NCBI GenBank assembly: GCA_964473825.1
Contig: CAYYQL010000001.1
Coordinates: 255,226 to 319,225, forward strand
Direction: 5' to 3'
DNA length: 64,000 nt
Origin: an uncultured archaeon
GTDB lineage: Archaea > Asgardarchaeota > Thorarchaeia > Thorarchaeales > Thorarchaeaceae
Position numbers and translations under genes: made by a program. Position 1 is the first letter of the stretch. Each line of letters begins with the position of its first letter. A model generated the notes under the pieces. That model saw only the letters and a program-made list of their open reading frames with translations, did not search any database and was not told where the DNA came from. This document shows positions 39,875 through 46,079 of this stretch, one piece after another.

Positions 39875-40789
39875 ATGGTCAAAGGATACGAAGTATCTGA
39901 GGATGGGACTCTTCAAGAAGTGGAGCTGACCAAGGAGACCCTTGATTCGGGTAGTGTTGTCTGTGTTGTCGATGACGCAACAAAGAGCATCTATCTCTGG
40001 AAAGGGACAGGAGCAGGAATTCGGAAAAAATTCATAGGGGCAAGGGTTGCCACAAACCTGCGGACAGAATACGGGTTCCACTTCAAGGTGAGGCCTCTTG
40101 ATGAAGGAGAGGAACCACCAACTTTCTTTACAGCACTCTCGGGTGAAACAGCAGCTGAACCGGTGATAAAACCTGGTGAATCACCACCATCACCTCCCAC
40201 CGCGAAGACACAGCCTACAACACCAGAGGCACCGCCAACTTCATCGGCACCGCCTCCCAAGCCAAAACCGACTGGGCCAAGGACCGCCGATGTTCCATCG
40301 AAACCACGTACCCCACCACCGACGAGAGCGCCGTCTACTTCTTCAGCTTCTAGTGCACCTTCAGCCACTATTCCCGCCAAGGTGTCCTCTGGGGCAATAG
40401 AAGAAATGATCAAGGAACTCGAGGATACTGAACCACCTGAGGGATACAGTAGAGAACTGCTAATCGTCTACAATGAGCTATTCACTGTAGCAGAACGAAC
40501 CATACGACTATTCGATCAGGTGAAGGTGGAGAGGAAATTTGAGAAGGTGAAGGAACCCCCTGAAGGAACGTTTATGGCAGAGGGCTTCATTCCCAGAGTG
40601 ATAGTGAAAGACGGCAGAGTACTGGGTATTGAGCTACTCAAAGGGACGCCTGATGCAATCCTAAGTCCAATTAAGTCTGAGATGAAAGAACGCCTTGGCG
40701 ACCTTATCAGTTTCTTCAAGTCGGAAGTTGAGCAGGGTGACGGCCCCTCAGCGGAAACCAAGAAGAAGAAGAAACTCGTAGCTAAGTGA
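39875..40789 (+). CDS. Single-domain gelsolin with Pro-rich linker and C-terminal X domain (1DGelX-like)
   Basis: LDSGSVVCVVDD..KSIYLWKG...DEGEEPPTFF gelsolin signature, then a Pro/Ser/Thr linker. Confidence 0.82.
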   Translation: MVKGYEVSEDGTLQEVELTKETLDSGSVVCVVDDATKSIYLWKGTGAGIRKKFIGARVATNLRTEYGFHFKVRPLDEGEEPPTFFTALSGETAAEPVIKPGESPPSPPTAKTQPTTPEAPPTSSAPPPKPKPTGPRTADVPSKPRTPPPTRAPSTSSASSAPSATIPAKVSSGAIEEMIKELEDTEPPEGYSRELLIVYNELFTVAERTIRLFDQVKVERKFEKVKEPPEGTFMAEGFIPRVIVKDGRVLGIELLKGTPDAILSPIKSEMKERLGDLISFFKSEVEQGDGPSAETKKKKKLVAK

Positions 40790-40853
40790 GTCAGTCCAGC
40801 AAAGGTATTTATCATGTACTGTGGTTAGCCCATCAGTCGGAGACGAAGCAATA

Positions 40854-41243
40854 ATGTCAACCCATCTTGACCCAGCCAAGGAGAAGGAACTAGTCGAACT
40901 GCTCATGGGACTGACTGACATCACAGATCTTGATGCCATAGCAGTTGTGAGCAAACAGGGAGTTAAGCTGGCTTATTTCGCTACAGAGGAATCTGATGCC
41001 GATCCCGACCTCATGGCCGCGGTCAGTGCCGCTCTTCTCGTTCAAGGAGAGATGGCAGCGGATAAACTGTATCTGAATGAACTCTATGAGGTCATCGTCA
41101 GGGGACGGGATGGCTTCGTTGTCTTATCACACGCCGGCGATTTTCTGATCATGGGTTCAGCAAAAGATCTTACATCAATGGGATTGGCAATCACCCAGAT
41201 GAGGAAGTACGCTAGAGAGATTGGCGATCTGCTTGCCGCGTGA
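40854..41243 (+). CDS. Roadblock/LC7 domain protein
   Basis: AIAVVSKQG, MAAVSAALL, EVIVRGRDGFVVL. Confidence 0.9.
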   Translation: MSTHLDPAKEKELVELLMGLTDITDLDAIAVVSKQGVKLAYFATEESDADPDLMAAVSAALLVQGEMAADKLYLNELYEVIVRGRDGFVVLSHAGDFLIMGSAKDLTSMGLAITQMRKYAREIGDLLAA

Positions 41244-41351
41244 TGCACCCAAGCCTTTGTTTCTAAACCAACACTGTTAGTTCTCAGGTAGCTGGCTCAG
41301 TCCACAAACAACAAATAGCTGTAGAAGTGCCCTAGTCTTGGGTGCCTTGCG

Positions 41352-42557
41352 GTGAAACTTGATATTACTTCACGAGCTGCAGACTTGAGATATGCTATTC
41401 GCGACATCGTGGTTGCGGCGAAGGAGTACGAGAAGAAAACCGGGAAAAAAGCCCTATACCTGAATATCGGAGACCCGCTCAAGTACGACTGGGAGACCCC
41501 CAGATTCATGATAGACGCGCTTCATGAGGCTTCATCAAAGGGAAGGAACGGGTACGCCCCTTCTGAGGGCGAGGATGAGCTCCGCAATGCAGCGGCTGAA
41601 AAGGAGAAGCGTGTAAACGGCACCGATGTCGACCCTGAGCGGATGATCATAACTGCAGGAGTATCTGAGGCGATTCAGTTTCTGACCGGCGCGTTGATCT
41701 CGGAGGGAGCCGAGTTCCTCGTACCAGGACCCGCTTATCCCCCGTATATATCATACATCAGTTACTTCGGTGGGAAGCCCGTTACGTACAGAACCATAGA
41801 GGAAGAAGACTGGATCCCTGATGTAGATGACCTGAGAGGGAAGATTAACGACAGAACCAAGGGAATCCTGATCATAAACCCAAACAACCCGACAGGAGCA
41901 GTCTATGATAGAGGCACCCTCAAACAGATTGCATACATTGCAGGTGAATACGAACTCCCGCTTATATCTGACGAGATTTATGACCAGCTCACTTTTGATA
42001 TGAAGCAGACCCCAATGGCGGGGGTTACCGGGGATGTGCCCATGATAGGATTCAATGGGATAAGCAAGGTGTACCTAGCACCCGGTTGGAGAATTGGATA
42101 CGTCTACTTCCAAGATGAAAATGGGGAGCTAGAACCCCTAAGAGATGCCATGGTACGCCAAGCTAGGATTAGGATATGCACTAACACTCCCACCCAGCTT
42201 GCAGCTGCCGCTGCCCTCCGAAGTGATGGAAAACATATCAAGGGAATGCTAGAGCGTCTCAGGAAGCGACGACAGATAATATGGGAACGCTTGAACGATA
42301 TTGAAGGAGTTTCAGCATCTCTCCCTCAGGCAGCGTTCTACATAATGGCAAAGGTCGAGCTGGACGGAATCTGGAGAGATGACCATGACTTCGTTCTCGA
42401 ATTGCTCAATGATACGGGAGTGGTATTTGTTCCCGGTTCAGGGTTCTGTCCCGACTATGGCCGTGACCATTTCAGAAGCGTATTCTTGCCACCACCTGAT
42501 ATGATAGCTGACGCAATGGATCGACTAGAGAGATTCATGGAGAAGAAGCGAAACTAG
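41352..42557 (+). CDS. Class I/II PLP aminotransferase (alanine aminotransferase-like)
   Basis: LNIGDP, INPNNPTG, SDEIYD, NGISKVY..PGWRIG. Confidence 0.92.
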   Translation: MKLDITSRAADLRYAIRDIVVAAKEYEKKTGKKALYLNIGDPLKYDWETPRFMIDALHEASSKGRNGYAPSEGEDELRNAAAEKEKRVNGTDVDPERMIITAGVSEAIQFLTGALISEGAEFLVPGPAYPPYISYISYFGGKPVTYRTIEEEDWIPDVDDLRGKINDRTKGILIINPNNPTGAVYDRGTLKQIAYIAGEYELPLISDEIYDQLTFDMKQTPMAGVTGDVPMIGFNGISKVYLAPGWRIGYVYFQDENGELEPLRDAMVRQARIRICTNTPTQLAAAAALRSDGKHIKGMLERLRKRRQIIWERLNDIEGVSASLPQAAFYIMAKVELDGIWRDDHDFVLELLNDTGVVFVPGSGFCPDYGRDHFRSVFLPPPDMIADAMDRLERFMEKKRN

Positions 42558-44689: not shown

Positions 44690-44841
44690 CTGGACATTCC
44701 CATCCTGAAACCTTCTACTGTTTCTGTAGCTTGCTAGCATATTAGCATTTGGCCGACGAAGCAAAAAGAAAAAGAGAGGACAAGAGGCGTTCCCAGCACA
44801 CCCAGAGCAAGGGAAAACCTCTTACAACAACTCCAACTAGT

Positions 44842-45117
44842 TTAATTTGGTGGGGGTGGGGGTGGAGGAGTATCGTCCTGCCTAGTGTCAACTGGTCTGG
44901 TGACTGAATCCCGCTTCTTGGAAGTGAAGAAGAAGCCAGCCAGAATGAAGATGAGGCCCACAATGGCCACAACTGCTCCGATGATGACCTGATAGTCTTC
45001 CACAAACACGTATCCCATGCCTGGAAGCAGTGCAATCACTGCACCAGCAATCACGAGAAGTGCACCCAAGCAGACAGGCCCGGTTCGAACGTATTCACGC
45101 CATGTTAGATAAGACAT
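44842..45117 (-). CDS. Small 2-TM protein with a C-terminal polyproline (P7) tail
   Basis: Two TMs, KKR stop-transfer, DDTPPPPPPPN end. Confidence 0.7.
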   Translation of the reverse strand: MSYLTWREYVRTGPVCLGALLVIAGAVIALLPGMGYVFVEDYQVIIGAVVAIVGLIFILAGFFFTSKKRDSVTRPVDTRQDDTPPPPPPPN

Positions 45118-45203
45118 TGTAATTTCTCCTAGTCGCGAAAGCCCAGTGGCTACTCTTTCTAGTCAGTCTTCTGGATTGATTTAAGATTGTCGGGGGTATA
45201 TTC

Positions 45204-46079
45204 TCACTCTACTCTGAACGTGACCACACAACCAGTAGAAGATGTGTTCACCATGATGTCAACACCTGTTAGCTCGCTGACTTTTTTCGCAAGGAGCTCG
45301 TGATATGCACAGGGGTATCCTGCCGGTAACAAAGTGCCTTCAGGGTCAATTCTTCGTGTCAGTTTGAGAAGATAGCACGAACCTGTTTCGATTGTTTCCC
45401 GATCGGTCCCGGTTCTAGGTATCTGGCTTTCATAGGAGCAACTCTGGATAAACTCTGCAAAACCACGGACCAGATCTTCTGAACTACCGCTGGCACTCCA
45501 GAGCCGGATGAGTGTCTCCGCTGCCTGCTCAAACATTGCCTCTAAATGTCCCTCCGGCAGACTCGAGCCGTAGGCAGCCATTTCTAGAAGCGCTACAGCT
45601 CTCCCGTCTGAGCTGCTTTTCCATAGGTCTCTATCTGTAATCTTTTCGAGCGTGGGCACCGCGCCAAGCTTTGGAAGATTCAGTGCAGTTTCAGGTTCGA
45701 CGGACTCGGCCATGCCTACAGAGCCAGCATCTGGATGTGCACTGCTTGCCGAGGCTTCCGCAGGTTCCTCATCATCTCGCCTCAAATCGGGAATCTCAAA
45801 GTTGGGAGCAGCCCCGGACTGCTGATATCTTCGAGCAAACTGCATTAGACGACCAGCGCACATAGCCACAGCATGACGGCTTAATCCCTCAATCCTCGCA
45901 TGTCCATAGACTATCCCTACTAGATTATCGAGATTGAGATCGTTCATCGTCTTCTCGGCGATAATCTTCTTTCCGCGTACTACTCTAGCAGCCCAGCGCT
46001 CGTTCATCACTCCAGCCTGTGCAGCATAGCTAGTGTTTGTGATGCCAATCAGCGGTGAGATCGGGTAGAAATCACTCAT
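45204..46079 (-). CDS. Two-domain protein with a C-terminal V4R-like (three-Cys) domain
   Basis: ETGSCYL...YPCAYHE...TGCVVTF; acidic linker. Confidence 0.5.
   Translation of the reverse strand: MSDFYPISPLIGITNTSYAAQAGVMNERWAARVVRGKKIIAEKTMNDLNLDNLVGIVYGHARIEGLSRHAVAMCAGRLMQFARRYQQSGAAPNFEIPDLRRDDEEPAEASASSAHPDAGSVGMAESVEPETALNLPKLGAVPTLEKITDRDLWKSSSDGRAVALLEMAAYGSSLPEGHLEAMFEQAAETLIRLWSASGSSEDLVRGFAEFIQSCSYESQIPRTGTDRETIETGSCYLLKLTRRIDPEGTLLPAGYPCAYHELLAKKVSELTGVDIMVNTSSTGCVVTFRVE

What the first reader, a model, noticed from the sequence alone, without database searches (positions are those of the whole stretch)
39875..46079. Candidate actin-membrane coupling gene cluster
Within 6.2 kb, interrupted only by an aminotransferase, lie two gelsolin-type actin regulators, a roadblock, a SNAP-like solenoid/coiled-coil scaffold, a membrane protein with a polyproline tail and a V4R-like protein. 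Together they could form a system for membrane-proximal actin assembly: anchor, monomer regulators, scaffold and signalling input. The individual gelsolin families are known; the cluster-level link is inference.
Basis: inference. Interest (0 to 1): 0.8.

Follow-up and report, generated by a model that had tools for sequence, protein, structure and literature searches.

The report
Asgard neighbourhood with one ancient pair
These seven genes from a Thorarchaeia archaeon are real but do not behave as one actin-membrane machine; what stands out is an actin-cutting gelsolin gene that keeps its own roadblock gene beside it across most Asgard lineages, plus a tiny membrane protein ending in seven prolines that is a testable, unproven anchor for profilin.

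Summary
All seven genes exist (Thorarchaeota). 39875-40789 is a 1DGelX gelsolin; the 96-aa gene is a divergent gelsolin-fold protein, not ProGel; 'SNAP-like' and 'V4R-like' are weak labels. The cluster reading fails its own test. Gene order is kept across the Thor family, but so are the flanking thiamine ABC transporter, aminotransferase and CDC48, and 85% of all adjacent gene pairs genome-wide. The genes lie in two convergent halves, relatives carry 2-17 kb insertions inside, and actin and profilin are elsewhere. Outside Thorarchaeia the cluster dissolves to background, except 1DGelX followed directly by its orthologous roadblock: 83 genomes, 13 of 20 Asgard families (background 8-26%). I found no paper describing this pair. 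Most likely the roadblock is a dedicated partner of this severing protein (clamp or GTPase link); binding is not tested. Separately, the Thor-specific two-helix membrane protein has the genome's longest proline run, kept in 23 of 23 orthologues, and this genome's profilin is orthologous to one shown to bind polyproline. This scan reported both points before on other genomes (e1-5597054, e1-5560655, e1-5514698).

The parts
39875..40789 (+). 1DGelX/GelX: gelsolin domain (aa 1-90), Pro/Thr-rich linker, domain X (aa ~170-290: helix, six-strand beta meander, long C-terminal helix), basic tail
   Evidence: PDB 7c2f E 5e-14; orthologues in 127 of 151 Asgard genomes; X-domain model mean pLDDT 85
40854..41243 (+). 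Roadblock/LC7 protein, dedicated neighbour of 1DGelX (ATG start by alignment; longest ORF starts at GTG 40821)
   Evidence: PF03259 E 1e-10; orthologous group in 132 of 151 genomes; gap to 1DGelX 64 bp here, -7 to 263 bp elsewhere
41352..42557 (+). Class I/II (alanine-type) aminotransferase; as syntenic as the other genes
   Evidence: PF00155 E 1e-57, NF006230 E 1e-149; synteny map
42554..44329 (-). Cytoplasmic TPR/SNAP-like helical solenoid (aa 3-225) + CARDB/TRAP-beta-type Ig domain (231-340) + long helical bundle (344-590)
   Evidence: AF2 mean pLDDT 88.5, pTM 0.50; Foldseek TRAP-beta TMt 0.61, Sec17/alpha-SNAP TMt 0.22-0.30; found in 60 of 151 genomes
44399..44689 (-). 96-aa divergent single gelsolin-fold protein with conserved C-tail (LPDRLKHSPREVY); lacks the W-x-G motif; paralogue at G000 C22:10535-10846
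44763..44773 (-). T-rich tract downstream of the polyproline gene, possible archaeal terminator (uncontrolled motif count)
   Evidence: at least 7 T in 10 nt in this gap in 12 of 13 genomes; gap 138-287 bp
44842..45117 (-). 91-aa two-helix membrane hairpin with basic juxtamembrane motif (KKRDS) and C-terminal 7-proline run; Thorarchaeia-specific
   Evidence: hydropathy and longest P-run among 12,263 six-frame ORFs; 23 of 23 orthologues keep a 5-7 residue P(A) run with mixed codons; distribution
45204..46079 (-). Two-domain Asgard protein: conserved N-terminal domain (aa 1-92), acidic linker, Cys-containing C-terminal domain resembling V4R/ATC by pattern only

Best explanation
The 6.2 kb stretch is an ordinary piece of slowly shuffled Thorarchaeia chromosome holding at least three or four transcription units, not one machine. 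Its only selected link is a two-gene operon, 1DGelX followed by a dedicated roadblock, inherited from an early Asgard ancestor. Shown: gene identities, background-level synteny of the cluster, phylum-wide adjacency of the pair. Taken from literature: 1DGelX nucleates, caps/sequesters and severs actin filaments without calcium control (PMC7444086), and a GelX is presented among the gelsolins from the Lokiactin co-IP (bioRxiv 2025.11.30.690169). Inferred (about 45%): because 1DGelX has no calcium switch, the co-expressed roadblock dimer is its regulator, binding domain X or the linker and either clamping two copies together (as LC7 dimers clamp dynein intermediate chains, own knowledge) or linking it to a small GTPase switch (MglB-like). 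The polyproline membrane protein is a separate, Thor-specific gene; most likely it displays a cytoplasmic PPII ligand at the membrane, with profilin the best-named candidate partner (about 30%).
For: Background synteny: 221/260 adjacent pairs kept in a same-family genome, 63% of genes in runs of 7 or more; 101/168 in the other Thor family versus 6/9 at this locus. The conserved block extends over thiBPQ, ThiN, GNAT, CDC48 and an FAD oxidoreductase. Insertions of 2.4, 3.1, about 13 and about 17 kb between roadblock and aminotransferase in G007, G018, G015, G022; polyproline gene and 96-aa gene on different long contigs in G014; 96-aa and V4R-like genes missing from the locus in G025. Pair: direct, co-oriented adjacency in 83 genomes and 13 of 20 families holding both genes (f1 25/25, f3 4/4, f9 23/23, f12 15/18, f15 4/4, f21 3/3, f24 2/2, f14 2/4, five single-genome families), verified on 40 fetched regions, against 8-26% background for adjacent pairs at that distance. 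In f12 the roadblock follows only one of two 1DGelX paralogues; both genes are undetected together in f8, f11, f17, f20, f23. In f22 two P-loop GTPase genes take the roadblock's place right behind 1DGelX. Profilin of this genome matches PDB 7pbh at E 8e-53 and keeps the residues named as the polyproline site; that profilin binds VASP polyproline with Kd 0.2-0.5 mM (PMC8410842).
Against: Seven of 20 families have separated the pair (f5 keeps them convergent about 5.7 kb apart; f6, f7, f13, f16, f19, f22 do not), so the link is dispensable. Kin genomes are not independent, so the family count (13/20) is the fair figure. Other cluster genes reappear within about 11 kb of 1DGelX in some distant families (f22: 96-aa-domain protein and TPR-Ig; f13, f19: V4R-like; f4: roadblock near TPR-Ig), which could be remnants of a larger functional neighbourhood. 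Thor 1DGelX was active in vitro without any roadblock (PMC7444086). Tran et al. 2024 (PMC10933270) note that operons are not a major way of coupling roadblocks to partners in MK-D1.
Confidence: 0.7

Rival explanations
1. One reading: the whole cluster is one membrane-proximal actin assembly system (polyproline anchor, two gelsolins, scaffold, V4R sensor, roadblock).
For: Order kept in most of 24 family-level relatives; five of seven genes are non-metabolic with eukaryote-like folds; scattered co-location of cluster genes in f4, f13, f19, f22.
Against: Conservation equals background and includes transport and metabolic genes; convergent halves; a T-rich tract and a 138-287 bp gap separate the anchor from the 96-aa gene; different phyletic ranges (anchor Thor only; 96-aa family 61/151; TPR-Ig 60/151; pair 127-132/151); non-adjacent co-occurrence outside Thor 2.8% vs 5.5% background; actin and profilin unlinked.
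Confidence: 0.08
2. The polyproline membrane protein alone is a minimal actin-membrane coupler: its cytoplasmic tail recruits profilin-actin like a formin FH1 or VASP tract, independent of the neighbouring genes.
For: Longest proline run in the genome; invariant position at the C-terminus in 23/23 orthologues with 2-4 different Pro codons, so it is selected as peptide; basic residues before helix 1 and after helix 2 suggest both ends are cytoplasmic (positive-inside rule, inference); cognate profilin is orthologous to a proven polyproline binder.
Against: One short tract, no actin-binding (FH2/WH2) domain; measured affinity of Thor profilin is weak (0.2-0.5 mM); other proline readers (GYF, WW, EVH1-like, or unknown) are not excluded; restricted to Thorarchaeia, whereas actin and profilin are pan-Asgard; topology is predicted only.
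Confidence: 0.3
3. The 1DGelX-roadblock pair is only an old shared promoter or frozen neighbour with no physical or functional link.
For: 8-26% of adjacent pairs survive at class distance anyway; separated in 7 of 20 families; gaps of 76-263 bp in f9 leave room for a separate promoter.
Against: Near-complete retention within each of 13 families while all other neighbours change; overlapping or 2-3 bp gaps in f3 and f15; paralogue-specific linkage in f12; re-juxtaposition in convergent form in G039.
Confidence: 0.25
4. The minus-strand genes serve membrane trafficking or protein quality control with the nearby CDC48 (SNAP-like adaptor plus Bet3/V4R-like subunit).
For: Sec17/alpha-SNAP are among the sequence and fold hits of the solenoid; solenoid + Ig architecture recalls TRAPP and coat subunits; CDC48 lies 1-2 genes upstream in Thor.
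Against: SNAP scores are below cut-off and TM-scores are 0.22-0.30; V4R not demonstrated; the genome's real V4R/TRAPP genes are on C11; TPR-Ig homologues outside Thor have no CDC48 nearby.
Confidence: 0.1

Closest known systems
Thorarchaeota 1DGelX / GelX (Akil et al. 2020, PMC7444086; B35_GelX, bioRxiv 10.1101/2025.11.30.690169)
   Same: One gelsolin domain about 40% identical to ProGel 7c2f, long low-complexity linker, C-terminal domain X; Thorarchaeota source.
   Different: The papers treat it alone and call X coiled-coil or disordered; here X models as a folded helix/beta-meander/helix domain (pLDDT 85) and the gene is tied to a roadblock, which the passages searched do not mention.
Asgard roadblock/LC7 proteins (Tran et al. 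2024, PMC10933270; PDB 7f8m, 9jue), bacterial MglB, dynein LC7
   Same: PF03259 fold; profile hits 9jue E 1e-11 and 7f8m E 9e-10.
   Different: A distinct near-universal Asgard orthologous group whose constant neighbour is a gelsolin, not a GTPase or DENN protein.
Crenarchaeal arcade cluster (crenactin + arcadin-1 to -4, PMC5173319)
   Same: Contains actin regulators in a gene neighbourhood.
   Different: No actin gene in or near the locus; two strands; not conserved as a unit.
Formin FH1 / Ena-VASP polyproline tracts; plant class I transmembrane formins
   Same: Membrane-bound polyproline tract long enough for one profilin (works-like claim).
   Different: 91 aa, one tract, no FH2, EVH or WH2 domain; not a homologue.
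ProGel (PDB 7c2f) and ADF/cofilin
   Same: The 96-aa protein has the single-domain gelsolin-like size and shares profile hits with gelsolin domains.
   Different: Not the ProGel orthologue (those are G000 C9:55500 and C23:28963); no W-x-G motif; own conserved C-tail; actin binding unknown.

Membership tests
1DGelX/GelX | Single N-terminal gelsolin domain with the D..W-x-G motif | tested here: met
   7c2f E 5e-14; W42 and G44 invariant in 18 orthologues
1DGelX/GelX | C-terminal domain X after a long linker | tested here: met
   Conserved block aa 170-290 across 15-58 sequences
1DGelX/GelX | Calcium-independent severing of actin | not testable with these tools
   Shown for the SMTZ1-83 protein in PMC7444086; inferred here by orthology
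Roadblock/LC7 | PF03259 above gathering cut-off | tested here: met
   41.5 bits vs 23
Gelsolin-fold superfamily (96-aa protein) | Detectable homology to gelsolin domains | tested here: met
   Indirect: both the family profile and the gelsolin-domain profile hit the same segments of L059/L060 (domain E 2e-6 to 2e-3 and 3e-7 to 1e-5); Atlas 0.94 with 203 shared features to a PF00626 cluster; hhalign only 40%
ProGel (96-aa protein) | DWG motif and orthology to 7c2f | tested here: not met
   Val-Pro where W-x-G lies; no PDB or Pfam hit; other genes in this genome are the ProGel homologues
alpha-SNAP/Sec17 | PF14938 above cut-off over about 280 aa, stand-alone solenoid | tested here: not met
   15.9 bits vs 25, 44 aa stretch; extra Ig and helical domains; TMt 0.22-0.30
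V4R / Bet3 / ATC-hydrolase-like | Profile or fold match of the C-terminal domain | tested here: inconclusive
   No Pfam hit in 18 members; hhalign best score 19.4 equals best of 30 random controls; Atlas leads 0.79-0.81; not folded
Arcade cluster | Actin gene within the cluster | tested here: not met
   Actin at G000 C53 beside 2DGel; on other contigs or 0.4-0.6 Mb away from 1DGelX in five more genomes
Arcade cluster | Arcadin-1 to -4 homologues | tested here: inconclusive
   No arcadin model among NCBIfam/Pfam hits of these proteins; no dedicated profile search made
Formin / Ena-VASP | FH2 or EVH1/EVH2 domain next to the proline tract | tested here: not met
   91 aa with two hydrophobic helices and a 26-aa tail; no such Pfam hit
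Profilin ligand (works-like) | Cytoplasmic run of about 6 or more prolines bound by the cognate profilin | not testable with these tools
   Run of 7 present and conserved; binding needs NMR or ITC

The most novel reading that the evidence does not exclude
Thorarchaeia use a minimal two-helix membrane protein whose polyproline tail recruits profilin-actin to the membrane (a pre-eukaryotic FH1/VASP-like anchor), while a pan-Asgard 1DGelX-roadblock complex gives a calcium-independent, possibly GTPase-linked switch for filament severing; the two are separate modules that happen to lie together.
Probability: 0.2. Interest if true: 0.75.

Novelty: new variant of a known kind. Interest (0 to 1): 0.45.

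Why it matters
How Asgard archaea control actin at the membrane without formins, Arp2/3 activators or ERM proteins is open: recent work shows actin-dependent crawling and says its co-IP under-represents membrane proteins (PMC13716822; bioRxiv 2025.11.30.690169). This analysis trims a seven-gene story to two cheap experiments. One is whether a near-universal roadblock regulates the only calcium-independent Asgard severing protein. The other is whether a native membrane protein supplies the polyproline ligand that Thor profilin was shown to bind only with a borrowed VASP peptide. It also shows that synteny within Thorarchaeia (85% background) is not evidence of function.

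Full report
Source and genes. Homologues of the 591-aa protein are labelled Thorarchaeota by their sources. The stretch holds seven ORFs: three on the + strand (39875-40789, 40854-41243, 41352-42557) and four on the - strand (45204-46079, 44842-45117, 44399-44689, 42554-44329); the two halves converge and overlap by 4 bp. All are conserved in relatives.

What each gene is. The first matches ProGel 7c2f over aa 1-88 (E 5e-14) and has a Pro/Thr linker and a conserved C-terminal domain: it is 1DGelX, shown in vitro to nucleate, sequester and sever actin independently of calcium (PMC7444086). Domain X, described there as a predicted coiled coil, models as helix, six-strand meander and long helix (mean pLDDT 85). 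The second is a roadblock, the third an alanine-type aminotransferase. The 591-aa protein is a helical solenoid, an Ig domain closest to TRAP-beta/CARDB and a helical bundle; SNAP similarity is below cut-off. The 96-aa protein has no direct library hit but is linked to gelsolin domains by shared profile hits on the same segments of L059/L060 and by the Atlas; it lacks W-x-G and is not the ProGel orthologue. The 91-aa protein has two hydrophobic helices and ends in seven prolines, the longest run among 12,263 six-frame ORFs of the genome; 23 of 23 orthologues keep the run with mixed codons; it was found only in Thorarchaeia among 151 genomes. The 291-aa protein has a conserved Asgard N-domain and a Cys-containing C-domain whose V4R label I could not establish.

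Is the cluster a unit? Across the Thor family the order is largely kept, but the block runs on through the thiamine ABC transporter, ThiN, a GNAT, CDC48 and an oxidoreductase. A genome-wide control gives 221 of 260 adjacent pairs (85%) kept in a same-family genome, with 63% of genes in runs of seven or more, and 101 of 168 (60%) in the second Thor family, where this locus scores 6 of 9. Relatives carry insertions of 2.4 to about 17 kb between roadblock and aminotransferase; G014 has the polyproline and 96-aa genes on different long contigs; G025 lacks the 96-aa and V4R-like genes at the locus. A T-rich tract and a 138-287 bp gap follow the polyproline gene in 12 of 13 genomes, and a TATA-like motif precedes it in 11 of 11, suggesting its own transcript (motif counts without shuffled control). 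Phyletic ranges differ. Outside Thorarchaeia, non-adjacent pairs involving cluster genes stay within 10 kb in 15 of 544 cases (2.8%) against 72 of 1309 (5.5%) for other genes; scattered remnants exist in f4, f13, f19 and f22 and include the aminotransferase. Actin lies on C53 beside 2DGel and profilin on C6; neither is near the locus in the relatives checked.

The exception. Profiles of 1DGelX and of this roadblock group were searched in 151 Asgard genomes. The roadblock follows 1DGelX directly on the same strand in 83 genomes from 13 of the 20 families that have both: f1 25/25, f2 1/1, f3 4/4 (Odinarchaeia; G026 encodes the profilin of PDB 5zza), f9 23/23, f10 1/1, f12 15/18, f14 2/4, f15 4/4, f21 3/3, f24 2/2, f25, f26 and f27 1/1. 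Forty fetched regions confirm both genes, with gaps of -7 to 263 bp. Background survival of adjacent pairs at this distance is 8% (strict rule) to 26% (10-kb rule). In f12 only one of two 1DGelX paralogues has the roadblock; in f5 the genes face each other about 5.7 kb apart; in f22 two P-loop GTPase genes follow 1DGelX instead; in f6, f7, f13, f16 and f19 they are apart. Both genes are undetected in f8, f11, f17, f20 and f23, which may reflect divergence. Liu et al. state that most Asgard signature genes lack conserved neighbourhoods and name only ESCRT and DENN operons, so a pair this stable is unusual.

How it most likely works. Shown: the pair is kept together far above background. Known: 1DGelX is a strong severing protein with no calcium switch. 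Inferred: the roadblock dimer is its partner, clamping domain X or the linker, or presenting it to a small GTPase as MglB-type roadblocks do (own knowledge); I put direct physical partnership at about 45%. The polyproline protein is a separate Thor invention. Basic residues flank the hairpin, so the tail is probably cytoplasmic (inference). This genome's profilin matches 7pbh (E 8e-53) and keeps the residues named as its polyproline site, and that profilin binds VASP polyproline at 0.2-0.5 mM (PMC8410842). A profilin-recruiting anchor is thus plausible (about 30%) but nothing ties it to its neighbours.

Comparison and novelty. Members of known families: 1DGelX, roadblock, aminotransferase. Not members: arcade cluster, alpha-SNAP, ProGel, formin/VASP. 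I found no paper describing the 1DGelX-roadblock linkage or this membrane protein in the library searched. Verdict: cluster-level system not supported (8%); an undescribed, phylum-wide gelsolin-roadblock pair and a candidate native profilin ligand are worth bench tests. New variant of a known kind, interest 0.45.

Noticed in passing
L235:3503-4345 (G000 C6:13502-14344, -): The profilin gene has a tandem, divergent 123-aa paralogue directly downstream; the tandem pair is also in G005, G006, G010 and G021.
   Followed up: partly
L236:1660-3942 (G000 C53): The actin gene lies convergent to 2DGel; this, not the window, is the actin locus.
   Followed up: partly
L059:1345-2919, L060:606-2159: 518-525 aa proteins in family f4 carry two domains intermediate between the 96-aa family and classical gelsolin domains; G000 C7:2498-3361 has one such domain.
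   Followed up: partly
L290:2880-16843, L291:4727-16979: In family f22, 1DGelX is followed by two small P-loop GTPase genes, with a third GTPase, a 250-280 aa protein bearing the 96-aa domain and the TPR-Ig gene within 11 kb.
   Followed up: partly
L241:3512-3811 (G000 C49:14511-14810) and L240:198-482 (G000 C12): Two more short ORFs with proline runs: a 99-aa protein ending in five prolines and a 94-aa ORF with six prolines and one hydrophobic helix; no Pfam hit.
   Followed up: no
window 40760-40789: 1DGelX ends in a Thor-specific basic tail (KKKKKLVAK-like) absent from other Asgard lineages; it could bind anionic lipids.
   Followed up: no
window 46166-48652: A GH38 alpha-mannosidase-like gene sits between the V4R-like gene and CDC48 in some Thor genomes and is absent from that position in others.
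   Followed up: no
L158:10033-12326, L160:8243-9782, L296:625-3145: The V4R-like N-domain gene and the aminotransferase face each other tail to tail in three distant families, hinting that the Thor minus-strand genes were inserted between them.
   Followed up: no
window 53335-54210: AN1 zinc finger fused to an M50 membrane peptidase about 2.3 kb from CDC48.
   Followed up: no
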